From the IMG/VR virus record IMGVR_UViG_3300031857_000014: a DNA stretch of 64,000 bases. The stretch is one strand, 5' to 3'. Each line of letters starts with the position of its first letter. The stretch's first letter is position 1. A program made the position numbers and the translations under genes. The DNA is from a virus. Taxonomy: Duplodnaviria; Caudoviricetes. The notes beneath the pieces are model-generated. The model was given only the letters and a program-made list of their open reading frames with translations. It was not told the origin of the DNA and did not search any database. This document shows, piece by piece, positions 4,443 to 61,520 of the stretch.

Positions 4443-5660
<1,218 letters not shown>

Positions 5661-22371: not shown

Positions 22372-22734
22372 ATGAAAAAGTCATTACTAACGATTTTTGT
22401 GTTTATTTTTTCTTTGGTTAAAATGAACGCTCAAAATTTACGCAGTGAAATGACACCAGAGTCGTATCAAAAATTGACAGAAAGTCAAAAAGAATTGTAT
22501 AAACAGTGTTTATCTGAATCGGGATTAGATGAAAAAGATATAATTTGGTTAAAAGATAGTACCTATGAAAATCTTATTTCAGATTATAAATATTATAGTA
22601 CAAAAGTCATCATAAAAAACAAAAATGATAAGAAAAATCAAACACATGTAATTTGTGGTAGGTATGAATTAAAAACCCCACAATGTTTGTATTTTGTAAA
22701 TGATAATGAAGTTATTTTACAGATTTATTTTTAA
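22372..22734 (+). CDS. Secreted hypothetical protein
   Basis: Signal peptide MKKSLLTIFVFIFSLVKMNA. Confidence 0.55.
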   Translation: MKKSLLTIFVFIFSLVKMNAQNLRSEMTPESYQKLTESQKELYKQCLSESGLDEKDIIWLKDSTYENLISDYKYYSTKVIIKNKNDKKNQTHVICGRYELKTPQCLYFVNDNEVILQIYF

Positions 22735-25732: not shown

Positions 25733-25738
25733 AAAAAT

Positions 25739-26734: not shown

Positions 26735-26745
26735 TTTATTTTAAT

Positions 26746-27741: not shown

Positions 27742-27745
27742 ATTT

Positions 27746-30700: not shown

Positions 30701-33700
30701 GGAATCGAAAATTGCTTTGTCTATATAGTATGGTCCATAATAACATAAATTAACATCAAAAGAATTAAATATTAACCTACTTACTATCGAACCATCGGGT
30801 ATTGATGACCAATCACCAATTATTCTAATTGTCGATTCATCTAACCAATCACCACTATATGATTCATAAGTGACACCTGAAACATCAATTCTAAAATATG
30901 TTAAAGGATTATTCACTAATGGTTCAAAAGTATTTGAACCGTCAATAAAATATCCCGCACCTTCGGAATGTGAATATAAACCCACTGAATTTGTATAATA
31001 ACCCTCTGAATGAGAATATTCACCATTAGAATCAGTATTAAAACCTTCGGCATGTGAATAATTACCATTAGAATCATTATATGAACCTTCAGCATGTGAA
31101 TGAGAACCTGGTGATCTTGAGAAATGACCTTCAGAATGTGAATATGAGCCGTTAGATTGTGTTTGTTCACCTTCACTATGTGAATAAGAACCATTTGCTA
31201 TAGTACTATTCCCTTCAGAATGAGATCCGGTACCAAAAGCGGTAGACGAACCTTCCGCGTGAGAATAAATACCAATCGCACCTGAACTTACACCTTCTGA
31301 ATGAGAATAAGCACCACTAGCAGTTGTACTTAATCCTTGTGCATGTGATAAAATACCACTTGGATTATTACTAGGTGCCCCTTGTTTAAATTTTTCAAGT
31401 ATTGATAATGTTGATGCTGTTGTTCCTGTAAATGTTAATGATAATTCATTTTGATTTACTGTTCTAGGACTTGACAAAGTACCGTTACCGGTATATAAAG
31501 TATTTGGTAAATTATTGTAAGTCGATGCACTTATTGTATTTGCAATTAAACCACCAGTAAAACTTGTTGACCCTGTAACAGTACCTCCACTTAATGGAAG
31601 ATAAGGGAATGATGTTTGACCTGTGTAGTTTACCCCAAAATTTGGATATGTTCCTGCAATCTGAATATTTGTTCCACCTGTAATTGTTACAGTTCTATCC
31701 GGAGATGTGTTTGTAACTGTTACAACACCATTACTTGTTGATGCTGAAATTCCTGTCCCACCAGTAACAGAACTTACTGGTAAATTACTGTATGTCGATG
31801 CAGATATTGTTGTTGCAGTTAAACCTTGTAATGACGTGTTACCACCAATATTCAAAGTGTTTCCGAATATAGATGTTCCTGAAAACGCACCATCCGCCCT
31901 TATGAATGAGGTAACAACATTACTTGAATTAACACCCTCTATTAAATTCGTTACCGAATCACCTGATATTGTACCATTTTTTATTGATAAACCATCTAAT
32001 GTTGAATTAATTGTGATTTCAGGATTAGATGAGTTATTATACGCTTGTTGTAAAGTTGTTGTTGATGTTCCACCCGCAGCGCCAATTAATTCACCAAATT
32101 TTGATACTGAGAAAAATTGAGCCTTACTTGTATCATTTAATTCAGTACAACTGCTTAAAACAGAAAGAATACCAATTAAAATACCATTATCTCTAAAATT
32201 GGGGAATGTAACAAATGTTTCGTTTTGTAGTGCAGCAACAGCAGCCGCCAATTGGTTATACTCCTGTTGTCCGTATTGAATTCTTATTTGACCGTTTTGT
32301 AATAAATAAATTCTTTGATTTGTTGCCTTTACACCAGTTATTGGTGTAATTACACCATTAACATCCTTATTTGATGGGTCAATTACTGTCGTATTCGACG
32401 CCGTTCCACCTGTTCGAGTTCTGTATTGAAAGGTTGTTGGACTTTGACTATTAATTGTTAAACTATTCGGATTTAATTTGTTTGTAATGTATCCAATACC
32501 AAGACCATATAATGTACCTGCAGAAGTATTAAATGTTAAATTGGCACCATTATCGGATGGTATAACACCATCATTAATCAATTTAATCGAGGTAAACATA
32601 TCCCTTAATTGGGATAGTGGTGATAATACAGAATCAGGTTCGTTAAATGTATTAATTAAAAACTGTTTATTTCCGTGACCAAACTTTCCAAGATATATGT
32701 TTTGTCTTCTTTGTTGTGGCGTTGGAAAACTTGTTTGTTGTGTTATTGTTGATGCACTTGTAAGTAATACATATGTTTCTGTTGCAGTAGAATAATATAA
32801 TGAGGTGTTACCTGTAGAACCAGAATATATAATAAGTTGAATTGTTGGATTTGCTGGTGCTGTCACATTATCAATTATCCAACCCTCAACCTCACCGACA
32901 CTAAATGTTGTTCCTGATGGGTTATCAATACTAAGTCCACCGAATTGGAAAACACCGGTGGAACTATTATTAGCAGCCAATATATTATTTTCTTGAGTCG
33001 TAATAATTGTTCCCTCAATTTCATTTAATATTGTAACTTGTAATTTACCATTAGATGAATTATCTAAAACGTGACCGACTTCACAAGTTCTGCCTGTATA
33101 AAATAGGTCGGAATAACTCGCGAATCCACCCGCAACATGTTGAGATAAATAAACCTGTTCACCAATACTAAATCCTGTTAAATTAATATCTCTAACGACA
33201 CCAAAAACAGTCATAAAACCAAATGAACCATTTGGTATATCATGAGTTGCAATACCTGATATTTGAAATTGTACCGCATCTCCACCCGTTCCGATTGCTA
33301 ATGATACGGTTGGTGTACCTGAAATTGCACCTGTTATATGTAATGCCTGTCCATTATTTATTTGAACCCCTAAATTATTATAAATTCTAACTAAACTTTC
33401 TTGACCTAAATTAACAGTTACATCATTACTTGGTGTTATTGGTTTGTATGATAAAGCATTTTCATTTGAGTCGTAATATAGTGTTCCTCCTGTTGGTGAC
33501 GGTACGGTTGGTGTAGTATCAAAATCAATATAATTCACTGATAACCCACTCGTAAAAGTTGTGTTACCAAATACAGTTCCTCCAGAAAGTGAAAGAAAGT
33601 TTCCTGACGCACCAGAAACAGGACCCCAATTAGCATTACCATTTGAATCACATGTTAATACGTAACCATTTATTTCTGTTCCGTTAGAATAAGTAAAACC

Positions 33701-39317: not shown

Positions 39318-40230
39318 AAAAATATTATCCATTTAGGATTCACAGTTTTAATCTTCGGATTATTTCTGAAGTTCTAATAAAAGATAATTGGGCGGTCTAT
39401 AGTCCATTCACCTTCGGGTGACAGATACCTTCGGGTATTTGAAAATAAACTATGAAAGTAGTATAAAGTGACTTACTTTGGTTGAAGTAGGTTGCGGTTC
39501 TCGAAAGAGAACTCGAGTAGACAAGCGAGATATCATTTAATCTTGAGTACTGAGGGTGACACTGTAGGGAAAGTGGTTGAATGACTTGGCGATGTGGGTC
39601 GTCAGGTTGAGGTGGGAACACCAATAAGAATAACTCGTAGAATACATGCAAGAAATAAGGTCATCCTACTTTATAATTGCGTTGTTCAATATTAGAGTTG
39701 ATTTAAAACCGAAAGGTATGATGATGTACAGATGGTGCTGTTATTATCCTTAATCTTTGTCCTACCAAGGACTTGATTATGAAGTTGACTTGAAATATGG
39801 AGACAGGGATGTTTCAGAGGGTAGTTCAGTATTTTCTCGTTCAAAAGATGGGAGAACTGGTGACGGACCACTACCTTCAAAATCCACAAACCAAAACTTT
39901 TTGATTGTATTCAAAAATATTAAATCAATAAAGAAAAAGTGTCCGTCAGTTGTCAGAAACAGGTGACTACACAGTCGTGAGGGGTTCACGGCCACAAAGG
40001 GTCTCAAGCCCGATGTGATTTTTAAGAAAGTTCTCTAATCCCGCAAGGATGAGTTGGGGTGGCAACCTCGAAGAGCAGCAAGTATTAAGAGAGTATTTGA
40101 CAACTTTAGGATTGGTTAATCTAATTGACCGTCACTGATTGGTACTACTCAAAAGGTAGTGGATAAGGGAAGAACAAATAATGTCCCCAAGTCAATCAAT
40201 AGAACTTGTAATCTCAGAGTTTCTTTTAAA
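39318..40230 (+). ncRNA. Large (about 0.9 kb) highly structured ncRNA, GOLLD/ROOL-class candidate; boundaries approximate
   Basis: No credible ORF; higher GC than flanks; several cUUCGg and GNRA hairpins; long-range 8-9 bp helices; own promoters, boxA-like leader and terminator. Confidence 0.8.
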
Positions 40231-40305
40231 AAATTTGTTTCCTAGTTTAGTAAAACTATGGTGGTGGAGATAATGACTTCTTTATGCGGTCAGCCTCAAA
40301 ATATG

Positions 40306-40333
40306 AAAGGACTAGTAAACTAGTCCTTTTTTT
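40306..40333 (+). terminator. Intrinsic terminator of the large-RNA transcript
   Basis: AAAGGACTAGT-aa-ACTAGTCCTTTTTTT. Confidence 0.8.
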
Positions 40334-40421
40334 ATTATACCACTTTTTTTTACCGGAAATTTTACTTATATTTATATTCAGTTAACGATTTTGTTAACTA
40401 TAAACTAAATAAAAATAAAAT

Positions 40422-40946
40422 ATGAAAAAAACAGTTTTCTTATTAGTTGCAACAATGTTAGCATTTACAACATTGTACGCACAAAAACAATCTGACATGT
40501 TTGTTAGTGGAACAGTATCGTTCACTAAAACTACAGATGTAGACGCATCTTATCAATTAAAACCAACTATCGGTTATTTTGTTACAAACAAACTTGCTGT
40601 TGGTGTACTTGGTGAAGTATCAAAATCAAGCACAGAAGAAGTATTGAATATCGGTGCTTTCGGAAGGTATCACTTTTTAACTGTTGGTAAAAATTGTCAA
40701 GTATTCTCACAATTGAGTTTGGCTAACAATTCTACAACAGTTGCTGGTGTAAAAACATCCGGATTTGGTGCTAATTTAGGTCTTGGTTCAAACTATTTTG
40801 TTACCAAAAGACTCGGTCTTACTATGGATTTAACCAATCTAATTACCTATTCAAATGTTGATTCTAAATCAACAATTAATATTGGTTTTGATGGTGTGGT
40901 AAACCCATTTGCAATTCCAAAATTTGGTGTTATTTATAATTTCTAA
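40422..40946 (+). CDS. Outer-membrane beta-barrel protein (small, Bacteroidota type)
   Basis: Signal peptide, alternating amphipathic strands (IGYFVTNKLAVG, FGRYHF, LGSNYFVTKRLGL), C-terminal GVIYNF. Confidence 0.85.
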   Translation: MKKTVFLLVATMLAFTTLYAQKQSDMFVSGTVSFTKTTDVDASYQLKPTIGYFVTNKLAVGVLGEVSKSSTEEVLNIGAFGRYHFLTVGKNCQVFSQLSLANNSTTVAGVKTSGFGANLGLGSNYFVTKRLGLTMDLTNLITYSNVDSKSTINIGFDGVVNPFAIPKFGVIYNF

Positions 40947-40968
40947 AAAAAATAACAAATATTATTTA

Positions 40969-40996
40969 ATCCCCACAATAGTGGGGATTTTTTTTT
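40969..40996 (+). terminator. Terminator after the OMP gene
   Basis: AATCCCCAC-aata-GTGGGGATTTTTTT. Confidence 0.75.
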
Positions 40997-41100
40997 GTCT
41001 AAACTTTTTGAGATTATTTTGAATAAAATAAAAATTGGTTCAAAATTTGATATAATTAAAATATTTAATATCTTGTTAACCTATTTATAATAAAGAACAT

Positions 41101-41652
41101 ATGAAAAATATAACATTATTTTTATTTTTTTTAATAGGTTTTTTAAGTGTGAATGCACAAACCCCTGATACTGTTTGTTATCGTTCAAATAACTCAACAT
41201 ATCAAGTAACAAATACACCGGGAAACACATATACTTGGACAGTCGCGTCACCTGGTGTTATTACAGGAGGACAAGGTACAAATGTGATTACAGTTAACTG
41301 GGGTTCAGCAAATCCTGGTTTAATTACAAATGCGGTTACAGTATTTCCAACAAGTGCTGAAGGTTGCGTAGGACCAACAGTATTATTAGATGTTTTTGTT
41401 TTAAACATTATACCTACAGTAACACCGGTAGTGTTATGTGCAGATGCTGGTTGTGTTCCTTTAATTGGTTCACCATCGGGAGGAGTTTGGAGTGGATCCG
41501 GTGTTAGTGGTAATCAGTTCTGTCCTAATTTAGTTACTGCGGGTCAATACACCATAACATACACATATAGTTTGGCTGGATGTACGTTTACAGGTACGGG
41601 TACCGCAACTGTAAATCCATTACCAACAATAAGTCCTATACAACATGATTAA
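41101..41652 (+). CDS. Secreted Ig/PKD-like domain protein
   Basis: Signal peptide; NTYTWTV..GVITGGQGTNVITVNW and GGVWSGSGVSGNQFCP...GQYTITYTY repeats typical of Bacteroidota surface proteins. Confidence 0.75.
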   Translation: MKNITLFLFFLIGFLSVNAQTPDTVCYRSNNSTYQVTNTPGNTYTWTVASPGVITGGQGTNVITVNWGSANPGLITNAVTVFPTSAEGCVGPTVLLDVFVLNIIPTVTPVVLCADAGCVPLIGSPSGGVWSGSGVSGNQFCPNLVTAGQYTITYTYSLAGCTFTGTGTATVNPLPTISPIQHD

Positions 41653-42212
41653 TGAAATGGATATTTTGTTTAATATATGTTTTACTGGGTTATGTCACAT
41701 ACGGACAACAAGAAATTGAATTATGTCCAGGTAATAGAAATACATTTACCTATTGGAGTAATTCATCTACATCAAATGGGGGTTGGTTATGGTTATTAAA
41801 CCTTGACACAATCTCAATAAACAGTAGTGTTAAAATAACATATCGAGACACCGGATTTTTTTTAATTACTGTTCATTATAAAGATGAATGTGGAGAACCT
41901 ATTCGTTTTTACAGAGTAAAAGTTAAAAAATGTCCCGAATCTGCAATATTTTTTCCAAACGCCTTTACACCAAATGGGGATGGATTAAATGATGGTTGGT
42001 CACCAATACCATTTAAAATAATTGAAATGAAATGGAATGTGTGGAATCGTTATGGTCAAAAAGTATACGAAAGTAAATACATTGAAGACAAGTGGAATGG
42101 GTTATACAAAGAAACACCACAACCAATTGGTGGATATGTTTTTCAATGTTGGTGGAAAGGAATTGATGGTAAAACTGGATATAAAAAAGGAAATTTAATA
42201 TTAATAAGATGA
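41652..42212 (+). CDS. T9SS type B (gliding-motility-associated, CHU_C-like) C-terminal sorting domain protein
   Basis: Signal peptide; IFFPNAFTPNGDGLNDGW, VWNRYGQKVYES, KWNG, QPIGGYVF, KKGNLILIR. Confidence 0.88.
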   Translation: MKWIFCLIYVLLGYVTYGQQEIELCPGNRNTFTYWSNSSTSNGGWLWLLNLDTISINSSVKITYRDTGFFLITVHYKDECGEPIRFYRVKVKKCPESAIFFPNAFTPNGDGLNDGWSPIPFKIIEMKWNVWNRYGQKVYESKYIEDKWNGLYKETPQPIGGYVFQCWWKGIDGKTGYKKGNLILIR

Positions 42213-42355
42213 AAAAATATATAACACGAGCAATATTTTTAATTATTATTTTTTTCTTAGTGATGGTGTTTTCTGGATGTACAAAATATTATTCACCTGA
42301 AAAATATGCTAACCCAAAAAGAAAATATGAGGTAGAAAGGAGAAAAGTATATTAA
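42209..42355 (+). CDS. 48-aa lipoprotein (absent from the ORF track)
   Basis: MKKYITRAIFLIIIFFLVMVFSGCTKYY...; lipobox FSGC; abuts both neighbouring genes. Confidence 0.65.
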   Translation: MKKYITRAIFLIIIFFLVMVFSGCTKYYSPEKYANPKRKYEVERRKVY

Positions 42356-42356
42356 A

Positions 42357-43727
42357 ATGAGACAAATTATCACATTATTATTTACAATATTTTCAATTGC
42401 AGGTTATTCTCAATGTGGTAATACTGATTTTGAAACAGGGACATTTACTGGTTGGTCCGGTAAATTAGGAACTTGTTGTCCAATTAATCTTCCAAATAAT
42501 GGTATTGTAAATGGGAGACAAACAATAATGACACAAGGAATTGATCCTCACTCATGCGGTGGTTTAAGAACTGTTTATCAAGGTACATATTCCGCTAGAT
42601 TAGGTAATGATAGAATTGGTGCACAAGCTGAAGGGTTGTCATATACATTAACAATAACACCAGCATCAACAATAATAAGGTATGCGTATGCTGTTATATT
42701 TCAAGATCCGAACCACGCAACTGCAGACCAACCCCGGTTTCAATCGAGAGTTAGATTAGCAAATGGTTCGATAATACCTTGTACTGATTATACTGTTACC
42801 GCAGCATCAGATTTACCTGGATTTCAATATTGCTCACCAACACCACCTGATACGACATTTATCGCGTGGAGAGATTGGACTGAAGTTGCTGTTGATTTAA
42901 GTGCATATGTTGGACAAACAGTTACACTTGAATTTGAAACTGGTGATTGTAGATTAAGAGGTCATTATGGTTATGCGTATATCGACGCAGTACAATGTGG
43001 TCAATCAAATACACATGTGACTTATTGTGAAGGTGATGACTCATTAACTATAAATGCAATGGGTGGATTTGCAAATTATGAATGGGAAACAGGTGATACC
43101 ACACAACAAATAACAATAAATCCAAACTTATATGATACTATAACGTGTACTGTAACAACATTTTTAGGTTGTGAATTAACATTATATTATATATTAGACA
43201 TGGCACCAGGGTACCCTAATTTTATTTACAGTCCAAATTGTTCGGGATTAGTTCAATTCACAAATACAAGTACCGCATCATATACACCAATAAATTATTT
43301 GTGGACATTTCCTGATGGTACAACATCAACTTTAGAAAACCCAACACACATTTTTAGTCCAGGTATTCATAGTGTTAACTTACAAATTTCTTCTAATTTA
43401 GGTTGTGGTAGAGATACCACTATTTTGATAGAAATATATCCAACACCTGTACCTAATTTTTCCGCACCTAATGTTTGTTTAGGTGTTCCAACACCGTTTA
43501 CAAATTTATCAACTCAAACCCTTGGGTATCCGGTAAGTTATTTGTGGGGTTTTGGTGATAATTCCACATCAACAAATACAAATCCAATTCACCTTTATAA
43601 TAACTCTGGCACATATTTGGTTACATTATATGCTGCAACAACAGGAACAGGATGTATGGATAGTATAACAGGACAAATAACTGTTTATCAAAATCCAATC
43701 ATTATTGGTCCAATAATATCAAATTAA
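42357..43727 (+). CDS. Secreted PKD-domain protein
   Basis: Signal peptide; CGNTDFETGTFTGWSG N-domain; two PKD repeats (VQFTNTS..YLWTFPDGTTSTLENPTHIF; FTNLST..YLWGFGDNSTSTNTNPIHLYNNSGTYLVTL). Confidence 0.82.
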   Translation: MRQIITLLFTIFSIAGYSQCGNTDFETGTFTGWSGKLGTCCPINLPNNGIVNGRQTIMTQGIDPHSCGGLRTVYQGTYSARLGNDRIGAQAEGLSYTLTITPASTIIRYAYAVIFQDPNHATADQPRFQSRVRLANGSIIPCTDYTVTAASDLPGFQYCSPTPPDTTFIAWRDWTEVAVDLSAYVGQTVTLEFETGDCRLRGHYGYAYIDAVQCGQSNTHVTYCEGDDSLTINAMGGFANYEWETGDTTQQITINPNLYDTITCTVTTFLGCELTLYYILDMAPGYPNFIYSPNCSGLVQFTNTSTASYTPINYLWTFPDGTTSTLENPTHIFSPGIHSVNLQISSNLGCGRDTTILIEIYPTPVPNFSAPNVCLGVPTPFTNLSTQTLGYPVSYLWGFGDNSTSTNTNPIHLYNNSGTYLVTLYAATTGTGCMDSITGQITVYQNPIIIGPIISN

Positions 43728-44725
43728 TGAAACAATACTTAATAATTTTCTTTTTACTGTTTTCTAACTTTTTATATTCTCAATGTAAAGATGTGTATAG
43801 TGTTCAAATAGATTGTCCAACAGAACAGGATAGTTTAGTACTATACAATAACGCATTGAAAGTGTATGATTTTTATGATAATAATAAATCATATGAAAAA
43901 ACAAGAACAAGAGAATTAACATCAGATTTTGATAAAAGAAACATATTTGAAGATTTAACAACGGCTAGAAGATTATTTTTTGTTATAAGAAGAGAAGTCG
44001 CTAAAATAAAAGAAACAGAAAAAAAATTTATTGCGGGTAAAACAAGCCCAAAATATGTTGACATTAATTACAAAGAATATTATCAAGAAGTTGATGAATA
44101 TAGATTCTATCAAAGAGAAATAGAAAGTCAAATAGTGAATAAATCCGCACCAATTGCAATTTATGATAATAGAATTGCACCAATTATTGTAAATGAATAT
44201 CACTGTATTGACTCAACAAGCCCTTATTTTGGTGATTTAGTAAACATACCATTATATATTCCTGTGACTGTTAAACCTTTTATGTTATTAACAGAATCAG
44301 AGTTAATTATTCGTAATGATATTTTAAAAAAAATTGACCCTAACTACATACCAAAAAATATGAACAAACCACTAATAGATACAATGACTATTAGAGAAAC
44401 AATAACCAAAATAACAAATACTGAAGACAATAAAAAAAGAGTAATTATTAAAGATACAGTAATTAAAAAAGACAATATAAGAATAAAACAACCAGAAATA
44501 CAATTAAGTTGTACATTCCCTATTCCTGTTTATGCATTTAATCCTATGAGAGGGGGAACGTTGGTTGGATTTGTTTGCGATAAATATTTTATAAAAATAA
44601 AACCATCACAATACAACTATTATGCTGTACCTAAATGGGCTCAAGACATATTAGAAAATAAAAAAGATTTAAATAATCTCCTAAAAAACAAATTTGGTGA
44701 TTATTTATTAGGCGTGATAGAATAA
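43727..44725 (+). CDS. Secreted hypothetical protein
   Basis: Signal peptide MKQYLIIFFLLFSNFLYSQ. Confidence 0.6.
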   Translation: MKQYLIIFFLLFSNFLYSQCKDVYSVQIDCPTEQDSLVLYNNALKVYDFYDNNKSYEKTRTRELTSDFDKRNIFEDLTTARRLFFVIRREVAKIKETEKKFIAGKTSPKYVDINYKEYYQEVDEYRFYQREIESQIVNKSAPIAIYDNRIAPIIVNEYHCIDSTSPYFGDLVNIPLYIPVTVKPFMLLTESELIIRNDILKKIDPNYIPKNMNKPLIDTMTIRETITKITNTEDNKKRVIIKDTVIKKDNIRIKQPEIQLSCTFPIPVYAFNPMRGGTLVGFVCDKYFIKIKPSQYNYYAVPKWAQDILENKKDLNNLLKNKFGDYLLGVIE

Positions 44726-44735
44726 AATAAAAATT

Positions 44736-47015
44736 ATGAAAAAAATATCAATCATTTTAATTTTAACAATAATCTTTTCTTCAGCAAATGCAAGAAAATT
44801 TTACTTTAGTAGTTCTACAGGTAGTGATACCTACACTACAACTCAAGCACAAAATCAATCAACTCCATGGGCGAGTCTTAAAAAAATGGAACAAGTGTCA
44901 CGAACTGCGAATGTTTTTCAAGCGGGTGACACATTAGCATTTAAACGTGGTGATGTTTTTGCGAACGGGTACATCAATACTTTTGCAAGTATGCAATGGA
45001 GAAATGATGGTGGTACTTATTGGATTGCACCAAGTGGTACTCCAGATAGACCTATTGTAATCACAAATTACGGAGACCAAACTTTACCATTACCAAATTG
45101 GTTATGGCCAACAACCACATCTCCTGTTAACGCTTGGCCAAACACAAGGCCGGCAAGACATGTTGTTTGTTTTACAGGTGTTGCGAATATAGTGATTGAT
45201 GGTATTCAATCCAATGATTTCAGATTTCCCGAGAATGATAAAATTACACCCGCATATACAGGTGGATGGTTAATTGGAGAATGGACAAATTCTAGAACTG
45301 TCAATGGAGTTTATGTTCAAGGTGCGAATAACCCCAATAATAGAAAATATATGGTTACAAACTTCAAGGTTCGTAACTGTGTGTTTAATAACATTCAATA
45401 TGGTTTTGGTGGGATAGCTGCAATTAATAGCGAATTTAGTTATAATAGAATAACAAATTTAAAGGCTACGACAGATACTGCTGGTGTGAATGATGTGATG
45501 GCAGGTGCTTTCGAAGCTTTAAGTGGGTTTTATGTCAATATACATCACAACTATATAAAAGGGGCTTGGGCTAAAAGTGGACGAATAAGTTCAACAAATG
45601 GACTCGGCGGTGTTGGTTTTGATATTCTTAACTTAAAAAATAGTAAAATTGCATATAATACAGTGATTGATTGTTCGGGTATGTGGGAAATTGGTAATCT
45701 GGACAGATTAGACTCTACTTCAGGTGCACAATACGATACCTTCGCATTTAACAAAGTAATTAACTGTGGTAATTTCGGTTATTTACATGGTTCGACAGGA
45801 TCATTTATTGGTAATAATCATCATTTATCTTTTTGGAACAATGTAATAATATCTAATAACAAAGACAGACAAAATGGATTAGGTTTTGGAAAAGACGTTT
45901 ATGGGGATGGACAAGGATTTGCACCAGGGACACCTAATGCTTGGTGGATGTGTAGAAACCCTTTGAGTACATGGAATCAATCACCATATATCCCTTCAAC
46001 AACTACAACAGCTGGTTCAAACATAGTTACCGTGAGTAATGTAACAGGAATACGAATAGGTAGTGTAGCATTCGCAAACAATGATAGTCTTTTAGGTACA
46101 ACATATCAAACAGTTACTGTAACATCAATAAACGGAAATCAACTCACATTGAGTGTAAACTGTACTCGTTCTACTATCACTACGAATGTGGCTTATTACC
46201 TACCTGTATCTGATACCACATGGAGTACTCCACTCAATTCATCATTTGCTAATTACGGTGGTACAAGAGCTTTTATTCAGTATGCTTCTGACAATACCAC
46301 TTTTGGTTCATATATTGATACAATGATTGATAGTAGAAATAATATCATGTATTGGACCACAGGTATACAAGGAGTTTATGATAGAACAAGATTCAAAAGA
46401 AATAGTAATATATACACACCTATTGGTGGTGCTAGATTTACAACTTCGGTCGGTAGTCCATTAAGAACTTCTGAAAGAGTTATCACAACCAAACTATTCA
46501 GGGACACTACCGCCTTATATCCCGAGGATTGGGACTTACATCCTGTGGATACAAGTTACGCTTATGCGACAGGGTCACCAACACCAGGGTTTACCGTAGA
46601 CTTTGAAGGTAAACCAATAACGACACCTTTTATCGGATTATTTTCAAAGTTAAATGTCGTTACTATAGATACTTGTAGATTCACATATGGACAGTGGAGT
46701 TCTTGTAATGGAAGTTTTCAAACAAGACCATATACCTCATTTCCCTCGGGTTGTGTTGGCGTCCCACCACTTGATAGTATTCAAAGAAGTTGTGTCGTTG
46801 TTTCACCGGTTAGATATTTTTATTATAGTCCAAGTAGAGTTAGTATTAGAATTGAATCATCTACTTCAGGAGTAATTACAATTACAAATACTTTAGGTCA
46901 AGTAATTCGTAATATAAATTATTCTGCAGGAGGTTCTTGGAAAAGTGTTAATTTTTTACCTTCCGGAACATATACTGCAAGAACTTATGATAAATCATTT
47001 TTGTTTATAAGATGA
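44736..47015 (+). CDS. Right-handed beta-helix (pectin-lyase-like) protein with a T9SS type A-like C-terminal domain
   Basis: Signal peptide; FYFSSSTGSD..N..TPWASL..AGDTLAFKRGDVF start; Asn ladders; C-terminal ITITNTLGQVIR..LPSGTYTAR. Confidence 0.78.
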   Translation: MKKISIILILTIIFSSANARKFYFSSSTGSDTYTTTQAQNQSTPWASLKKMEQVSRTANVFQAGDTLAFKRGDVFANGYINTFASMQWRNDGGTYWIAPSGTPDRPIVITNYGDQTLPLPNWLWPTTTSPVNAWPNTRPARHVVCFTGVANIVIDGIQSNDFRFPENDKITPAYTGGWLIGEWTNSRTVNGVYVQGANNPNNRKYMVTNFKVRNCVFNNIQYGFGGIAAINSEFSYNRITNLKATTDTAGVNDVMAGAFEALSGFYVNIHHNYIKGAWAKSGRISSTNGLGGVGFDILNLKNSKIAYNTVIDCSGMWEIGNLDRLDSTSGAQYDTFAFNKVINCGNFGYLHGSTGSFIGNNHHLSFWNNVIISNNKDRQNGLGFGKDVYGDGQGFAPGTPNAWWMCRNPLSTWNQSPYIPSTTTTAGSNIVTVSNVTGIRIGSVAFANNDSLLGTTYQTVTVTSINGNQLTLSVNCTRSTITTNVAYYLPVSDTTWSTPLNSSFANYGGTRAFIQYASDNTTFGSYIDTMIDSRNNIMYWTTGIQGVYDRTRFKRNSNIYTPIGGARFTTSVGSPLRTSERVITTKLFRDTTALYPEDWDLHPVDTSYAYATGSPTPGFTVDFEGKPITTPFIGLFSKLNVVTIDTCRFTYGQWSSCNGSFQTRPYTSFPSGCVGVPPLDSIQRSCVVVSPVRYFYYSPSRVSIRIESSTSGVITITNTLGQVIRNINYSAGGSWKSVNFLPSGTYTARTYDKSFLFIR

Positions 47016-47656
47016 GAATAATTTTAATGTTATTAATTTTATTTAGTCCTAATTTACAGGTTTATCAAGAAAATCTTGTAACAGAAAATGAACATGTTTT
47101 AATACGAATTTTTAAATATGAACAAGAACTTGAAGTTTGGGTGAATAACTCAGAAAAAAAAGAATACTATTTGTATAAAAAGTATTCCATTTGTAAAATA
47201 AGTGGAACTCTCGGACCAAAAAGAAAAGAAGGTGATTATCAAGTTCCAGAAGGGTTTTATTACATAAACGATTTTAACCCTAAAAGTAAATATAAAAAAA
47301 GTTTAGGTATAAATTATCCAAATGAATCTGATAAAATACTAAGTACATATAAAAAATTAGGTGGAAACATATACATACATGGTGATTGTGTTTCAGTTGG
47401 GTGTATTGCTATTGGTAATAAATTTATTGAAGAGTTATTTTTAATTTGTATAAGAACAAAAAATCCGATTCCGGTTCACATTTTCCCAATTAACTTTAAC
47501 AATAATAAATCTAAAAATTCATTACTATATTACAATTATGTTTATGAAAACAAAAATTTTGAAACTAATTTAAAAAATGGTTTTAACTTTTTTGAAGAAA
47601 AAAAATATCCGCCAAAAATAAAAGTAGACAGTTTGGGATATTACCAATTTTTTTAG
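47012..47656 (+). CDS. L,D-transpeptidase family protein (YafK/DpaA-like)
   Basis: LEVWV, SGTLGPKRKEGDYQVPEGFYYI..FNPKSKYKKSLGINYPN, IYIHGDCVSVGCIAI. Confidence 0.87.
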   Translation: MRIILMLLILFSPNLQVYQENLVTENEHVLIRIFKYEQELEVWVNNSEKKEYYLYKKYSICKISGTLGPKRKEGDYQVPEGFYYINDFNPKSKYKKSLGINYPNESDKILSTYKKLGGNIYIHGDCVSVGCIAIGNKFIEELFLICIRTKNPIPVHIFPINFNNNKSKNSLLYYNYVYENKNFETNLKNGFNFFEEKKYPPKIKVDSLGYYQFF

Positions 47657-47670
47657 TTATATTTACAAAT

Positions 47671-48354
47671 ATGAAAATAGTATTAATTTCAGACACTCAC
47701 GGTTTACATGAAAAAATGTTGTATAACTTACCTGAAGGTGATATGATAATCTGTGCTGGAGATATAAGTAATGTCGGTAGTATATTTGAAATTAATCAAT
47801 TTACACAATGGTTTTCTAAATTGCAGTATAAATACAAAATTTTTATTGCGGGTAACCATGATTTTGGTTTTGAAAAAATTAGAAAATCTAATGAAATAGG
47901 TATTAGTATTCCACATGGTGTGATATATCTTGAAGATGAAATGGTTGAAATTGAAGGATTAAAAATATATGGTAGTCCTTGGCAACCCGAATTTCATAAT
48001 TGGGCATTTAATTTACCAAGAAACGGTGATCAAATAAAATTCAAATGGGATTCAATACCTGATGATACAGATATATTAATTACTCACGGACCACCTTTTG
48101 AATGTTTAGATATTACACCAACAAATCAAAGAGTTGGTTGTGAATTATTAAAAATTAGATTAGATGATTTGAAACCAAAACTTCATGTGTTTGGTCATAT
48201 ACATGACAGTTATGGAATAAAATATACAAGTGACACATTATCTGTAAATGCGTCTATTTGTAATGAAAGATATCAACCGATAAATAAACCAATTGTTGTT
48301 GAGGTGTCTGAAGTTTATGGTGAAAAAGTCATAACTTATGTTGATAATGGTTGA
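47671..48354 (+). CDS. Metallophosphoesterase (calcineurin-like)
   Basis: ISDTHG, ICAGDIS, IAGNHD, LITHGPP, HVFGHIH. Confidence 0.9.
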   Translation: MKIVLISDTHGLHEKMLYNLPEGDMIICAGDISNVGSIFEINQFTQWFSKLQYKYKIFIAGNHDFGFEKIRKSNEIGISIPHGVIYLEDEMVEIEGLKIYGSPWQPEFHNWAFNLPRNGDQIKFKWDSIPDDTDILITHGPPFECLDITPTNQRVGCELLKIRLDDLKPKLHVFGHIHDSYGIKYTSDTLSVNASICNERYQPINKPIVVEVSEVYGEKVITYVDNG

Positions 48355-48675: not shown

Positions 48676-49094
48676 TGGGCCTGCCTTGGTTTTGACGGAC
48701 ATTTGTATGGTAAATGGGCATGTAGTCGGATGTCATCTACGACTTAAATCTACGGTGGTAAAATTCAAACGGCAACGTTTACAACAACATGGAAATTGCA
48801 GGTCTTCTTGCAACTTCTAAAGTAGCTGCTTAATTAAGTACCTACTCTCGGGTCGGTTAGGACATATAACCTAGGAACAGAAGTCCATGAGGTTTAACAC
48901 CTACCACGTGATTCAGTTCAGAAAAGTGTGTTGGAGCAAATCAGACGGCTCCTTAAATCCGGTTTGGGGATTGTTGGAAGTAGTTATCTAAATCTATAAC
49001 TTCCTATTTGTTGATTATGAATAATCAAATAAACATGTAGTCCATTTATTGTTCGGTGTTTCGGACAGCGGTTCGACTCCGCTCAGGTCCACCA
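48676..49094 (+). ncRNA. ssrA: tmRNA (phage-encoded), predicted tag (A)GNVYNNMEIAGLLATSKVAA at 48771-48833
   Basis: 5' GGGCCTG..GGTTTTGAC; 3' GCGG-TTCGACT-CCGCT-CAGGTCC-A-CCA; G3.U70 and A discriminator; TATCTTTG promoter at 48649-48656. Confidence 0.93.
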
Positions 49095-49103
49095 CAAATA
49101 AAA

Positions 49104-49127
49104 TTCCCCTCATTTGAGGGGTTTTTT
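49104..49127 (+). terminator. Terminator after ssrA
   Basis: CCCCTC-attt-GAGGGG followed by TTTTTT. Confidence 0.8.
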
Positions 49128-56530: not shown

Positions 56531-57610
56531 TTATAAATACTTAACAAATTCTAATGCGGATTGAATTACTTGGTGCATATCGTAGTATTTGTATTCCGCC
56601 AACCTACCACCAAAGTAAACATTTCTTAAATTTTCTGATTCCTGTTTGTACTTGAGATACCTCTCATTATTTATTTCATCATTCACAGGATAGTATGGTT
56701 CCGTTTTATCTGCAATATACTCTGTCGGGTATTCAAATGTTAACCAAGTCACATCTGATTGAATATTTTCAAAATGTTTGTGTTCAATAACTCTGGTGAA
56801 TGGAATACCGACATCAGTATAATTCATCACAGGAGTGCCTTGGTAATCATCATCAATTATTTTTTTATGTTCAAATTTCGTTGTTTTATATTCCAAGTCA
56901 CCATATTTGTAATTGAAAAATTTATCGATTGGTCCGGTATAAATTAATTTGTAATAATCAGGAATTTCGTCTTTAAAGAAATCTGTATTTAATCTAACTT
57001 CAATTCCTTCCAATAATTTTTCAAATATTTGAGTATATCCACCAACAGGTATTCCTTGATATTTGTCATTAAAATAATTGTTATCGTAAGTAAATCTAAC
57101 CGGTAATCTCTTAATTATTTCTTTTGGTAAATCCTTTGGTTCTTTTCTCCATTGTTTAGTTGTATACCCTTTAATTAGTTTTTCATAGACATCGGTACCA
57201 ACTAATTTAATAGCTTGTTCTTCTAAATTCTGTGGGTCTTTGATATGTTCACTCTGAAGTTGTATCATTCTTTTTGCCTGATCTGGATGTGTTACATTCC
57301 ATAATTTTGAAAATGTCCACATATTGAATGGTAAAGAATAAATTTCACCTTTATAATTTGCAACAGGTCTTAGGGTAAAATCATTGAAAGAAACAAATTG
57401 ATTAATCCATTTCCAAACCTCTTCATTTGATGTGTGAAAAATATGTGGACCGTATTCGTGTACATTTATACCATCTCTATTGGAAGTATAACAATTACCA
57501 CCAATGTGGTTTCTTGATTCAATTACACAAACTTTATAACCCTGTTTGTATAATTCGTGTGCACAAATCGAACCAAAAAATCCTGACCCAACAATCAAAT
57601 AATCATACAT
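56531..57610 (-). CDS. glf: UDP-galactopyranose mutase
   Basis: DYLIVGSGFFG, HIGGNCY, VHEYGPHIFHT, KYQGIPVGGYT, PYYPVN, GGRLAEYKYYDMHQVI. Confidence 0.95.
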   Translation of the reverse strand: MYDYLIVGSGFFGSICAHELYKQGYKVCVIESRNHIGGNCYTSNRDGINVHEYGPHIFHTSNEEVWKWINQFVSFNDFTLRPVANYKGEIYSLPFNMWTFSKLWNVTHPDQAKRMIQLQSEHIKDPQNLEEQAIKLVGTDVYEKLIKGYTTKQWRKEPKDLPKEIIKRLPVRFTYDNNYFNDKYQGIPVGGYTQIFEKLLEGIEVRLNTDFFKDEIPDYYKLIYTGPIDKFFNYKYGDLEYKTTKFEHKKIIDDDYQGTPVMNYTDVGIPFTRVIEHKHFENIQSDVTWLTFEYPTEYIADKTEPYYPVNDEINNERYLKYKQESENLRNVYFGGRLAEYKYYDMHQVIQSALEFVKYL

Positions 57611-57623
57611 AAAAAATATAATA

Positions 57624-58280
57624 TTAAATTTCTAATAAACCAATACCTAAAAAATTACCATCAACATTATCGTATTGTTTAATAAACTCATGATGTTTAT
57701 AGTCATTTTTTATCTCATTCCAAAATTTAACGACATCAGGACACGCATCGCTATATATATCATGTAAAACAATATATTTTGGGTTCAATGTTAATGATAA
57801 ATTAAAATCTTTTTTTACTGCCTCGTAACTATGAAATCCATCAACTAATATTAAATCTACTTGATTATCAACATCAGATTTTGTAATATCAAAACTAGAT
57901 TTATTTAGATACGTAAATTCTGAATATTCTTCATATTCTTTTAAAATGTCTGTTTTTGAAATTATATCACATGCGTATAATTTCAAATTTTTATTTTTTA
58001 ATTTTAATATTTCTGATGTGATGATAAATGTACCACCCCATCTACTACCAATTTCCAAGTAAGAATTAATTTCATAAGATGATAATTTTTTTAAGTATTC
58101 ATTAAATTGATTTGGGTATTGCCAAAATTTTAAACCTTTTCCGTAACTATCACTAAGATGTGGTGGCATCTGCATTAATTTTTCATCATTCATACCAAAT
58201 GATGGTAGTAACAATTCCAAATCGTCATTTGATATATTATCAATATCAATTTCATTTAATTTTGTAATTAAACCTTTCAT
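57624..58280 (-). CDS. Class I SAM-dependent methyltransferase (Methyltransf_24-like)
   Basis: YLEIGSRWGGT, DLILVDGFHSYEAVKKD, IVLHD. Confidence 0.82.
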   Translation of the reverse strand: MKGLITKLNEIDIDNISNDDLELLLPSFGMNDEKLMQMPPHLSDSYGKGLKFWQYPNQFNEYLKKLSSYEINSYLEIGSRWGGTFIITSEILKLKNKNLKLYACDIISKTDILKEYEEYSEFTYLNKSSFDITKSDVDNQVDLILVDGFHSYEAVKKDFNLSLTLNPKYIVLHDIYSDACPDVVKFWNEIKNDYKHHEFIKQYDNVDGNFLGIGLLEI

Positions 58281-58405
58281 TTTAAAATTTTTTATTTAGT
58301 TTATTTTTTTTATATAATCAATGTAATAAGGTAATGTATGAATTTTTATAAATTAGTCTAAAATATAGAATGTTAAGGTTGTATTTTTAAATTTTTAAAA
58401 ACCTG

Positions 58406-59089
58406 TTAAAAATGTTTTATTATTTTTTTATCGTAGTGTGATAACCAAAATTCTTCACCCATTGACACAACACCACCAATATCGGTTTGAAGTCCCCCTT
58501 TTTGTATTACAGATATGGGGTATGAAACATATTTATTTTTAAAAACATCATTAAAAAATATATCTAAAAAATCCCAAGGTCTATCGAAACCATTTTCAAT
58601 TACTTTGTCAAAATGTTTAGAATTTAAAATATACGCATGTGTACAAATACAAACTTGACATTTTATTAGATGTTCGGAATGTAAATTTAACTCTGAATCG
58701 GCAATATTGGCACCTAAATAAAAAATATCCCAATCATTTATTTTACTTAATTCATCTAGCGCCAATTCAACAGTTGTTAAACCATTATAATTATCTTTTT
58801 CATAAAAAAGAGCGTCATCCTCAAAAACTAAAACATTTTTATACCCTCTATTTTTTGCAATTCTAATCACTTCTTTATGTGACCTTGATCCTGCAGAACC
58901 TAATAAAAACATTTTTTCACTATCATCCGCCCTAAAATCGACAGTATCATAAGGTGATATTCCTGAAAATCTCTCAACAAAATTTTCTAAACCCAATTTT
59001 TTAAATTGTTCAATCATAAATTGGTTTTTATCTGTGCGATGATCTACATTTATATAAAACGCACCATCAACAAATTCTTGTATCTTCAT
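58406..59089 (-). CDS. Glycosyltransferase family 25-like
   Basis: FYINVDHRTDK, SHKEVI..NVLVFEDDA, WDIFYLG, THAYILN. Confidence 0.85.
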   Translation of the reverse strand: MKIQEFVDGAFYINVDHRTDKNQFMIEQFKKLGLENFVERFSGISPYDTVDFRADDSEKMFLLGSAGSRSHKEVIRIAKNRGYKNVLVFEDDALFYEKDNYNGLTTVELALDELSKINDWDIFYLGANIADSELNLHSEHLIKCQVCICTHAYILNSKHFDKVIENGFDRPWDFLDIFFNDVFKNKYVSYPISVIQKGGLQTDIGGVVSMGEEFWLSHYDKKIIKHF

Positions 59090-59091
59090 TT

Positions 59092-61424: not shown

Positions 61425-61520
61425 GATTTTTTTATAAAAATGTAAGAAAAAAAAACGATAATTCAAACTACAATTTTTTTTATCGGTTATTTTTTTTATA
61501 CTTTATTCAAAATCACTAAA

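What the first reader, a model, noticed from the sequence alone, without database searches (positions are those of the whole stretch)
41101..47656. A phage operon of type IX secretion cargo and envelope enzymes
Seen: seven tightly coupled genes with export signals: an Ig/PKD protein, a type B CTD protein, a lipoprotein, a PKD protein, a secreted unknown, a beta-helix protein with a type A-like CTD, and an L,D-transpeptidase family protein. The operon is preceded by the late motif at 41082. Known: T9SS is confined to Bacteroidota and close relatives and exports CTD-bearing adhesins and enzymes to the cell surface. Inference: the phage uses the host T9SS to coat or remodel the infected cell surface, degrade polysaccharide, jam gliding/T9SS receptors against competing phages, or promote aggregation. 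I know of no characterised phage system like this.
Basis: partly seen in the sequence, partly recalled or inferred. Interest (0 to 1): 0.8.

Follow-up and report, generated by a model that had tools for sequence, protein, structure and literature searches.

The report
Phage island of T9SS surface cargo
A large freshwater phage of Bacteroidota carries a swappable eight-gene island of exported cell-envelope proteins, including type IX secretion cargo whose sorting domain is encoded on a separate small gene from its passengers, which suggests that the phage re-dresses the surface of the cell it infects.

Summary
Window 40422-47656 has eight consecutive + strand genes with signal peptides. They are the only clear ones among about 77 ORFs.

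The genes are:
- an outer-membrane barrel
- g1, a PKD-like protein
- g2, a mini-protein with a type B CTD (TIGR04131 45.4 bits, cut-off 35)
- g3, a 48-aa lipoprotein
- g4, a PKD protein
- g5, an unknown protein
- g6, a GH136-like beta-helix with a diverged type A CTD (below cut-off alone, supported at family level)
- g7, a YafK/DpaA-like YkuD enzyme

The block is phage-borne:
- Head genes lie upstream in the window.
- At least 8 independent assemblies show the same flanks.
- A complete 170-kb phage genome carries part of it.
- It is a clean indel between GOLLD RNA and a phosphoesterase gene in close relatives.

What this adds: g4 and g2 are the two halves of one bacterial type B cargo architecture. 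CTD-less passengers (g1, g4, about 100 relatives) end in a conserved tag, I-x-H-[D/N]-COOH. In the DNA scanned, that tag almost always lies beside a mini CTD carrier. Some phages carry the fused form.

Phage T9SS cargo was noted in silico by Bellas 2020. The split carrier/passenger arrangement was not found in the literature searched. Function (surface remodelling, receptor masking) is inferred, not shown.

The parts
40275..47647 (+). Accessory island (OMP + g1-g7), absent as one block from close relatives
   Evidence: In G001 and G002 (TerL 86-89% identical), GOLLD (window 39442-40274) is followed after 65 bp by the g8 gene (window 47648 onward).
40369..40376 (+). TATTTATA motif upstream of the OMP gene
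   Evidence: The same octamer lies 17-35 nt upstream of head genes at 5660, 6435 and 15511.
40422..40946 (+). 174-aa small outer-membrane beta-barrel with signal peptide
   Evidence: PF13505 24.4 bits, below the 28.7 cut-off. The 49%-identical orthologue in G004 scores 30.1.
40968..40989 (+). Intrinsic terminator after the OMP gene
   Evidence: 9-bp stem followed by a T run.
41082..41089 (+).
41101..41652 (+). g1: signal peptide plus two PKD_6/Ig-like repeat modules. CTD-less passenger ending in the tag ..PIQHD
   Evidence: PKD_6 37.6 bits. Its repeats match giant multi-repeat surface proteins, some with CHU_C or Por_Secre_tail. Tag.
41652..42212 (+). g2: mini carrier made of signal peptide, one Ig-like domain and a T9SS type B CTD
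   Evidence: TIGR04131 45.4 bits (cut-off 35) and PF13585 44.6 bits. Aligns to residues 626-755 of bacterial cargo P0346.
42209..42355 (+). g3: 48-aa lipoprotein (lipobox FSGC)
   Evidence: A conserved homologue sits in the same position in L122. It is not universal: the small ORF at that position in L121 has no signal peptide.
42357..43727 (+). g4: signal peptide, N-terminal jelly-roll-like domain and 2 PKD domains. CTD-less passenger ending in the tag ..GPIISN
   Evidence: PKD_4 85 bits. 39% identical over residues 1-448 to a 792-aa bacterial CHU_C protein. About 100 CTD-less relatives carry the same tag.
43727..44725 (+). g5: exported protein of unknown fold, with a conserved Q-C..C mature N-terminus
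   Evidence: 150 homologues, the sampled ones all with signal peptides, one annotated as a Caudovirales protein. AF2 pLDDT 77, with no fold match.
44736..47015 (+). g6: signal peptide, right-handed beta-helix (GH136/PL6-like), 4-Cys linker and a diverged type A CTD (about residues 690-759)
   Evidence: TIGR04183 16.9 bits. 20 of 54 relatives hit PF18962. hhalign 73% to bona fide type A CTDs.
47012..47656 (+). g7: YkuD-fold enzyme of the YafK/DpaA subfamily with signal peptide
   Evidence: YkuD 38.2 bits. NF040599 123 bits (cut-off 365). E 2.8e-31 to PDB 8IKR, with the IHGDCVS.GC motif conserved.
47671..48354 (+). g8: cytoplasmic metallophosphoesterase. Same transcription unit, but backbone rather than island
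   Evidence: Metallophos 63 bits and no signal peptide. Present in relatives that lack the island.
49106..49121 (+). First strong + strand terminator after g1 (downstream of the tmRNA)

Best explanation
This is a horizontally exchanged accessory island of a large (at least 205 kb) freshwater phage. The host is a Bacteroidota bacterium, probably a member of Chitinophagaceae.

Shown:
- Eight co-oriented genes encode Sec-exported envelope proteins built from host cell-surface gene families.
- One (g2) carries a bona fide T9SS type B sorting domain.
- One (g6) is a GH136-like beta-helix glycanase with a diverged type A sorting domain.
- Two (g1, g4) are cargo 'passengers' that have lost their sorting domain. 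They end instead in a conserved tag, I-x-H-[D/N]-COOH.
- One (g7) is a YafK/DpaA-type peptidoglycan amidase-like enzyme.

Inferred mechanism:
1. During infection the proteins enter the periplasm through host Sec.
2. The OMP and the lipoprotein are inserted by host BAM and Lol.
3. g6 leaves through the host T9SS by the PorV/type A route. It then trims a surface polysaccharide.
4. g2 leaves through the T9SS and docks on a host PorP/SprF-type shuttle, because the phage encodes none.
5. g1 and g4 associate with g2 through their tag and are displayed with it.
6. g7 loosens tethers between outer membrane and peptidoglycan.

The net effect proposed is to re-dress the infected cell surface. Receptors would be masked or destroyed, which gives superinfection exclusion and keeps progeny from being lost on debris. 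Adhesion would also change.
For: Phage linkage:
- Major head protein, portal and TerL lie at 2.6-11.6 kb of the window.
- The island sits between identical flanks in at least 8 independent assemblies and is present in runs from 16 studies.
- A complete DTR phage, G004, carries OMP, g2, g4, g6 and g5 at 38-66% identity. Its TerL, portal and MCP are only 27-43% identical.
- The island is a clean indel in relatives G001 and G002.

Export:
- Unambiguous signal peptides occur only in this block.
- Six of the seven signal peptidase I-type signal peptides (OMP, g1, g2, g4-g7) expose Gln at +1. This is the Bacteroidetes Q-rule (PMC5837995).

T9SS:
- TIGR04131 is above cut-off in g2 and in four other phage carriers.
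- For the g6 CTD: family hits to PF18962, hhalign 73% and a seven-strand sandwich in the model.
- Ferruginibacter paralogues of the g6 helix carry TIGR04183 at 38-46 bits.

Split cargo:
- g4 and g2 map to contiguous parts of one bacterial protein.
- The tag is conserved in about 100 cluster representatives.
- 15 of 17 tagged IMG/VR loci have an adjacent mini carrier, and 7 loci carry the fused form.
- The complete phage has no PorP/SprF gene. Candidate hosts have 11-12.

Type B CTDs need PorP/SprF shuttles (PMC9143113, PMC12618676).
Against: - No experiment and no expression timing are available. RNA evidence is two small exact contigs of g6 in two metatranscriptomes, which could be DNA carry-over.
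- g6 alone fails the TIGR04183 cut-off.
- The host is inferred only from homologue taxonomy.
- The role of the tag is untested. One carrier (L121) is a bare CTD, so the partner of the tag is unclear.
- One tagged locus (L172) and several distant variants have no carrier within 6 kb.
- g5 has no recognisable fold.
- Close relatives do without the island, so it is dispensable for the lytic cycle.
Confidence: 0.5

Rival explanations
1. Dominant-negative jamming. The mini CTD carrier and the CTD-less adhesin fragments are decoys, not functional surface proteins. g2 saturates the host PorP/SprF shuttle or the translocon. g1 and g4 compete with host adhesins in the periplasm. Host type B adhesins, which are likely phage receptors and gliding adhesins, then disappear from the surface.
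For: - The phage has no shuttle gene of its own, while candidate hosts pair g4-like giant proteins with PorP/SprF genes.
- The passengers are truncated copies of host cargo.
- One carrier is only a signal peptide plus a CTD.
Against: - A strictly conserved C-terminal tag, and fused full-length versions in other phages, suggest that the passengers are meant to travel with the carrier, not merely to clog the system.
- g6 looks like an intact enzyme.
Confidence: 0.2
2. Egress helper. The secreted glycanase (g6) strips capsule or EPS, and the YafK-like amidase (g7) detaches the outer membrane from peptidoglycan. Lysis and progeny release are more efficient as a result. The other proteins are accessory.
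For: - The fold of g6 resembles GH136 and PL6 depolymerases.
- g7 is closest to DpaA, which cleaves the Lpp-peptidoglycan link.
- A possible late-type motif lies upstream.
- g6 and g7 are also adjacent in L122.
Against: - No endolysin, holin or spanin was recognised in the island.
- G004 keeps g6 but not g7.
- This does not explain the adhesin-like PKD passengers, the CTD carrier, the OMP or the lipoprotein.
Confidence: 0.15
3. Host-benefit moron set. The island gives the infected cell, or a pseudolysogenic one, new adhesins and a glycan-degrading enzyme. These serve nutrient acquisition, attachment or aggregation during a long jumbo-phage infection.
For: - Bellas 2020 proposed this for Cryophage T9SS glycoside hydrolases.
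- The g5 family occurs as a lone, oppositely oriented moron in small phages.
Against: - No integrase or lysogeny genes were seen in the window.
- The passengers lack their own sorting domains.
Confidence: 0.12
4. Virion proteins. The beta-helix and Ig/PKD proteins are tail spikes, fibres or decoration proteins, and the 'CTDs' are just beta-sandwich domains.
For: - Tailspikes appear among weaker fold matches of g6.
- Ig-like domains are common on virions.
Against: - Cleavable signal peptides are conserved in all of the more than 100 g6 relatives listed and in the sampled g5 relatives.
- The Q-rule holds, a lipobox is present and TIGR04131 is above cut-off.
- The island is absent from close relatives that share the structural genes.
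Confidence: 0.03
5. Assembly chimera or host contamination.
For: The genes resemble host gene families.
Against: - The junctions are identical in at least 8 assemblies from different samples and pipelines.
- Runs from 16 studies hold the DNA.
- Part of the island is present in a complete DTR phage genome.
- GC content equals that of the phage backbone.
Confidence: 0.01

Closest known systems
Phage-encoded T9SS type A cargo of 'Cryophage' (Bellas et al. 2020, Nat Commun, PMC7468147)
   Same: - A large environmental phage of a Bacteroidota host.
- Glycoside-hydrolase-type genes with T9SS CTDs lie in variable genomic islands.
- The authors proposed that the host T9SS is hijacked to change the cell surface.
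   Different: - Only type A CTDs on intact enzymes were reported there.
- Here there is also a type B CTD, an OMP, a lipoprotein, a YafK-like enzyme and a split carrier/passenger arrangement.
- Neither system has been tested experimentally.
Bacterial T9SS type B cargo with cognate PorP/SprF shuttle (SprB-SprF; PG1035-PorP-PorE; PMC9143113, PMC12618676)
   Same: - g2 has a TIGR04131/CHU_C domain above cut-off.
- g4 plus g2 together reproduce the architecture of 790-aa bacterial 'gliding motility-associated' PKD proteins.
   Different: - The sorting domain sits on a separate 111-194-aa protein.
- The passengers end in a short conserved tag.
- No shuttle gene is linked.
Superinfection-exclusion and surface morons of coliphages (T5 Llp, phi80/N15 Cor lipoproteins; lambda Lom and Bor) (from my own knowledge)
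   Same: Small phage-encoded outer-membrane barrels and lipoproteins, dispensable for lysis, that alter or block surface receptors.
   Different: - There is no sequence relationship.
- Those are single genes, not an eight-gene operon that uses a dedicated secretion system.
GH136 lacto-N-biosidase and PL6/PL9 beta-helix glycan-active enzymes
   Same: - The g6 model is a right-handed beta-helix. The best Foldseek match is GH136 (7v6m, E 5.7e-10).
- The N-termini of Ferruginibacter paralogues hit the LnbX model.
   Different: - Sequence identity is 12%.
- Catalytic residues and substrate are unknown.
- TM-scores are low (0.33-0.42).
E. coli DpaA/YafK (LdtF), PDB 8IKR
   Same: - YkuD fold with the shortened HG-x-C-x-S-x-GC catalytic motif.
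- E 2.8e-31 over nearly the full length.
   Different: - g7 scores well below the equivalog cut-off (123 bits against 365).
- The Braun lipoprotein substrate is not known in Bacteroidota.
- g7 is phage-encoded.

Membership tests
T9SS type B CTD protein (TIGR04131 / PF13585 CHU_C): g2 | C-terminal domain scores above the curated HMM cut-off | tested here: met
   TIGR04131 45.4 bits (cut-off 35). PF13585 44.6 bits (cut-off 27). Orthologous carriers in other phages score 37.0-57.2 bits.
T9SS type B CTD protein: g2 | N-terminal Sec signal peptide | tested here: met
   Hydrophobic N-terminus with Gln at +1. This is a heuristic, not SignalP.
T9SS type B CTD protein: g2 | Genetically linked cognate PorP/SprF-like shuttle (frequent, not obligatory) | tested here: not met
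   No PF11751 hit in the island or in the complete phage G004. The search does work: Ferruginibacter genomes give 11-12 hits.
T9SS type B CTD protein: g2 | T9SS-dependent secretion | not testable with these tools
   Needs expression in wild-type versus T9SS-mutant hosts.
T9SS type A CTD protein (TIGR04183 / PF18962): g6 | C-terminal domain scores above the curated HMM cut-off | tested here: inconclusive
   - g6 alone scores 16.9 bits (cut-off 23) and has no Pfam hit.
- 20 of 54 family members hit PF18962 at E<=0.01.
- A profile-profile comparison with bona fide CTDs gives 73% probability, E 3e-5, with motifs in register.
- The canonical PNP motif reads YYN-S here.
T9SS type A CTD protein: g6 | Seven-stranded Ig-like beta-sandwich at the extreme C-terminus | tested here: met
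   The AF2 model has seven strands in residues 692-758, with pLDDT about 90. It aligns with the C-terminal region of Zobellia beta-porphyranase A (row 25).
Right-handed beta-helix glycan-active enzymes (GH136/PL6-like): g6 | Parallel beta-helix fold | tested here: met
   Foldseek E 5.7e-10 to 7v6m. 29 PDB matches at E<=0.001, almost all beta-helix glycosidases or lyases.
Right-handed beta-helix glycan-active enzymes: g6 | Catalytic residues and substrate | not tested
   Identity of about 12% is too low to transfer active-site residues.
YkuD superfamily, YafK/DpaA subfamily: g7 | YkuD domain above cut-off, with catalytic His and Cys | tested here: met
   PF03734 38.2 bits (cut-off 23.4). The motif IHGDCVSVGC aligns with IHGDCVSIGC of 8IKR.
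DpaA equivalog (NF040599): g7 | Score above the equivalog cut-off | tested here: not met
   123.2 bits against a cut-off of 365. It is a subfamily relative, not an orthologue.
Small OM beta-barrel (PF13505): 40422-40946 | HMM above cut-off | tested here: inconclusive
   24.4 bits against 28.7 in the window. The G004 orthologue scores 30.1 bits.
Phage flexible island / moron cassette | Present or absent as a block between conserved flanks in close relatives, and more conserved than the backbone between distant phages | tested here: met

The most novel reading that the evidence does not exclude
Freshwater Bacteroidota phages use a bipartite T9SS substrate. CTD-less passengers carry a short C-terminal tag (consensus P-x-x-[I/P]-[G/S]-[P/I]-I-x-H-[D/N]-COOH). 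The tag is derived from the last inter-domain junction of the ancestral cargo. Through it, the passengers bind a separately encoded mini type B CTD 'carrier' in the periplasm. The binding could be non-covalent strand complementation, or a covalent Asp/Asn-based linkage of the tag/catcher kind. One sorting domain then ferries one to three different passengers through the host T9SS and docks them on a host PorP/SprF shuttle.
Probability: 0.3. Interest if true: 0.9.

Novelty: new variant of a known kind. Interest (0 to 1): 0.74.

Why it matters
T9SS substrates are defined by a covalently attached C-terminal sorting domain. A natural system in which that domain is a separate polypeptide would change the definition of cargo. 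It would also reveal a new short sorting or assembly tag, and it would offer a modular display tool for Bacteroidota.

Ecologically, abundant freshwater jumbo-type phages appear to exchange islands that rewrite the host surface: adhesins, glycans and tethers between outer membrane and peptidoglycan. This bears on superinfection exclusion, on receptor dynamics and on why gliding and T9SS loci are hot spots of phage resistance.

The island exists in plus and minus variants of otherwise similar phages. That gives a ready natural experiment.

Tried and rejected
- **Known phages:** DNA and protein searches of INPHARED phages with the cassette and with g6 found nothing.
- **g5 fold:** Foldseek against PDB and AFDB clusters, VIA-align wide and the ESM Atlas gave no credible fold (best Z 3.2).
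- **g5 as an LnbY-like chaperone of the GH136-like g6:** considered and rejected. g5 relatives occur alone in small phages without g6.
- **g5 as a PorP/SprF shuttle:** rejected. There is no PF11751 hit and the model is alpha/beta, not a barrel.
- **Tag completing a truncated Ig domain of g2:** weakened. The L121 carrier is a bare CTD.
- **g1-g2 as one gene split by a stop or a frameshift:** rejected. g2 has its own signal peptide, and gene order varies between phages.
- **Expression evidence:** only two short exact g6 contigs in metatranscriptomes, so inconclusive.
- **Late promoter motif:** enrichment is weak. The sigma-70 scan is uninformative in this AT-rich DNA.
- **A variant junction in run X27 (38250 to 44724):** has short anchors, so it was not pursued.

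Full report
**What is there**

Window 40422-47656 holds eight co-oriented + strand genes.

A hydrophobicity heuristic was applied to about 77 non-nested ORFs of the window. It flags signal-peptide-like N-termini only in this block, apart from one doubtful hit on g9 read from an upstream TTG. Of the seven signal peptidase I-type signal peptides (OMP, g1, g2, g4-g7), six would expose Gln at +1. This is the Bacteroidetes Q-rule (PMC5837995). Matrishin et al. also noted Q-rule proteins in Porphyromonas phages (PMC10367356).

Strong + strand terminators lie at three places only:
- 40305-40330, after a GOLLD RNA
- 40968-40989, after the OMP gene
- 49106-49121, after a tmRNA

g1 through g9 therefore look like one transcription unit.

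The octamer TATTTATA sits 12 nt before g1 and 46 nt before the OMP gene. It also precedes the head genes at 5660, 6435 and 15511. It is only modestly enriched, 22 sites against 13.3 expected. Late expression is therefore a reasonable guess, not a result.

**Gene by gene**

- **OMP (174 aa):** PF13505-type small barrel. It is just under cut-off here and above it in the orthologue of phage G004.
- **g1 (183 aa):** a signal peptide plus two PKD_6/Ig-like modules. An exhaustive search matches these modules up to 74 times within single giant (1,000-6,300 aa) proteins. Of the ten smaller relatives scanned, three carry Por_Secre_tail or CHU_C.
- **g2 (186 aa):** a signal peptide, one Ig-like domain and a type B CTD. 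TIGR04131 scores 45.4 bits against a cut-off of 35.
- **g3 (48 aa):** a lipoprotein with a conserved homologue at the same position in L122.
- **g4 (456 aa):** a signal peptide, an N-terminal domain and two PKD domains.
- **g5 (332 aa):** belongs to a family of at least 150 proteins. The sampled members all have a signal peptide and a conserved Q-C...C start, and one is annotated as a Caudovirales protein. The AF2 model (pLDDT 77) matches no known fold.
- **g6 (759 aa):** the AF2 model (pLDDT 82) has three parts. They are a right-handed beta-helix, a 4-Cys linker and a seven-strand C-terminal sandwich. The best fold matches are GH136 lacto-N-biosidases (E 5.7e-10) and PL6/PL9 lyases.
- **g7 (214 aa):** a YkuD enzyme of the YafK/DpaA subfamily. 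It matches PDB 8IKR, the DpaA structure, at E 2.8e-31, and the IHGDCVS.GC motif is intact.

For the CTD of g6 the evidence is mixed but leans positive:
- g6 alone scores below the TIGR04183 cut-off, 16.9 bits against 23.
- 20 of 54 relatives hit PF18962.
- A profile of the family's C-termini aligns in register with bona fide type A CTDs, hhalign 73%, E 3e-5.
- In a Ferruginibacter chromosome, tandem paralogues of the same helix are 1,241-1,522-aa proteins with TIGR04183 at 38-46 bits.

**Is it really phage DNA?**

Yes.
- The window encodes a major head protein, a portal and a TerL. The TerL is T4-like and only about 28% identical to any isolate.
- Hundreds of IMG/VR contigs, up to 334 kb, carry an 85-89% identical TerL.
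- The exact g6 protein lies between the same flanking genes in at least 8 assemblies from JGI, ENA and NCBI samples. Its longest contig on record is 205 kb.
- Freshwater, lake and river runs from 16 studies hold the DNA.

A complete 170-kb phage with direct terminal repeats (G004) carries OMP, g2, g4, g6 and g5 at 49, 53, 66, 58 and 38% identity. Its TerL, portal and capsid are only 27, 35 and 43% identical. The cassette is therefore better conserved than the backbone, which indicates exchange between phages.

The same region of G004 also encodes three more envelope-related proteins:
- a PorE-like PD40 + OmpA protein
- an SPFH protein
- an Ig + papain-like protein

Conversely, in the close relatives G001 (287 kb) and G002 the GOLLD RNA is followed after 65 bp by the g8 phosphoesterase gene. 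Window 40275-47647 is thus a clean presence/absence island.

**Host**

Relatives of g6 in species-representative genomes are almost all Chitinophagaceae or Ferruginibacter. Ferruginibacter chromosomes hold long g4-like PKD proteins. One 656-aa example has TIGR04131 at 38.6 bits. These genomes also hold 11-12 PorP/SprF genes, several of them adjacent to the PKD proteins. The complete phage G004 has no PorP/SprF gene. The phage type B CTD must therefore rely on a host shuttle. Such shuttles are required for type B cargo (PMC9143113, PMC12618676).

**The unexpected part: a split cargo**

Sister notes of this scan suggested that the sorting domain is split from its passengers. I tested this.

A 792-aa bacterial 'PKD domain-containing' CHU_C protein (P0346) aligns collinearly with both phage genes:
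- g4 residues 1-448 align at 39% identity, E 1e-91. The last residues of g4 align to P0346 up to position 621.
- Mature g2 aligns to P0346 626-755.

g4 and g2 are therefore the two halves of one cargo architecture, each with its own signal peptide. They are cut at the last inter-domain junction, which reads IYPTPEEPILxxxTPICPG in the bacterial proteins.

About 100 CTD-less cluster representatives of the g4 family all stop at this junction, with a conserved end. Position -4 is Ile in 101 of 120. Position -2 is His in 78. The last residue is Asn in 59 and Asp in 41. Relatives with CHU_C end in the usual ..L[RK].

The same tag ends two other kinds of protein:
- g1 and its relatives
- an unrelated 237-aa exported protein in L123

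Co-occurrence of the tag with a mini carrier gene:
- Among 2,189 ORFs of all loci then held, a signal peptide plus [ILV]-x-H-[DN]-COOH occurred only next to a mini CHU_C gene.
- A profile scan of IMG/VR gave 42 loci. Seventeen have strictly tagged passengers. Fifteen of these have an adjacent 111-194-aa carrier. One contig ends 24 nt after the passenger, and one has no carrier within 6 kb.
- Each carrier has one or two passengers in these loci, and three in L123.
- Seven loci instead carry a fused 877-884-aa g4-like protein with CHU_C. This is a Rosetta-stone link between the two parts.
- More distant lineages show variant tags (..IIYTD..AIYTN) with carriers.
- All carriers tested pass the TIGR04131 cut-off.

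**How it probably works**

The statement and the evidence for and against it are in Best explanation. In short:
- **Shown:** the proteins are exported. They derive from host surface-protein families. They carry, or sit beside, T9SS sorting domains. They travel between phages as a dispensable block.
- **Inferred:**
  - Host Sec, BAM and Lol and the host T9SS deliver them.
  - g6 trims a surface glycan.
  - g2 docks on a host shuttle, with g1 and g4 attached through the tag.
  - g7 remodels tethers between peptidoglycan and outer membrane.
- The likeliest pay-off is masking or destruction of receptors, by analogy with T5 Llp, Cor and receptor-destroying enzymes (my own knowledge).
- **Rivals:**
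  - jamming of the host type B pathway by decoys
  - help with egress
  - benefit to the host

  These cannot be separated without experiments.
- A virion role and mis-assembly are effectively excluded.

**Novelty**

Phage-encoded T9SS cargo has been described twice before from sequence alone:
- Bellas et al. 2020 called the three type A CTD genes of Cryophage 'a unique occurrence'. They noted that these genes lie in variable islands.
- de Jonge et al. 2019 saw T9SS sorting-domain ORFs in gut phage contigs.

Further literature searches found nothing on phage type B CTDs or on split cargo.

The finding is a new variant of a known kind. The carrier/passenger split and its tag are the part that a T9SS specialist would find surprising.

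Noticed in passing
window 39817-40220 (+): A GOLLD RNA (Rfam RF02032, 326 bits) lies immediately upstream of the island. Contigs covering it are very abundant in two lake metatranscriptomes, with word depth about 1,300-1,800, while the neighbouring genes are near zero.
   Followed up: partly
window 48677-49094 (+): A phage-encoded tmRNA (RF00023, 102 bits) lies at the end of the same transcription unit. ARAGORN did not call it.
   Followed up: no
window 36966-38624 (+): Four tRNA genes (Arg-TCT, Asp-GTC, Glu-TTC, Met-CAT) lie upstream of an RNaseH-like gene and the GOLLD RNA.
   Followed up: no
window 56531-61466 (-): A UDP-galactopyranose mutase-like gene (GLF/NAD_binding_8) is followed by three glycosyltransferase-like genes. 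This is a second possible surface-glycan modification module in the same phage.
   Followed up: no
window 24731-33841 (-): Three paralogous 331-333-aa Gly_rich_2 proteins and a 2,031-aa protein lie in a region of raised GC (0.40-0.44 against about 0.31). They may be fibre or receptor-binding genes.
   Followed up: no
window 22372-22734 (+): One more small ORF has a signal-peptide-like start (MKKSLLTIFVFIFSLV..) if read from an internal ATG. It lies next to a glycosyltransferase-like gene.
   Followed up: no
L001:835-2259 and L001:6673-8217 (phage G004): The complete 170-kb phage carries two more envelope-related genes beside its copy of the island. One is a PorE-like PD40 + OmpA peptidoglycan-binding protein (NF052230, 157 bits). 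The other is a Big_7 + papain C1 protein.
   Followed up: partly
L118:6001-6939, L120:6001-6924: The g5 family occurs as a solitary gene in small (31-45 kb) siphovirus-like contigs. In L118 it is oriented against its neighbours, between terminase and replication genes, which is moron-like.
   Followed up: partly
g6 family (P0022, P0052-P0074, P0102-P0119): Relatives of g6 swap the type A-like CTD for other C-termini. These are SprB repeats followed by short basic tails (..SRRNRNC, ..KSSSVTCP, ..KSRLKFKN, ..RKKFVNKN). They may be other sorting signals.
   Followed up: no
L122:7001-8473 (P0254, P0259, P0268): Some g4-like passengers (490-493 aa) have a lipobox (..LLFTSCG) instead of a signal peptidase I site. 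Tagged passengers can therefore also be lipoproteins.
   Followed up: no
window 38250 / 44724 (run X27): Contigs of one aquatic run join 38250 directly to 44724, the start of g6. This hints at a relative that carries g6 without g1-g5. The anchors are only 23-24 nt, so the evidence is weak.
   Followed up: no
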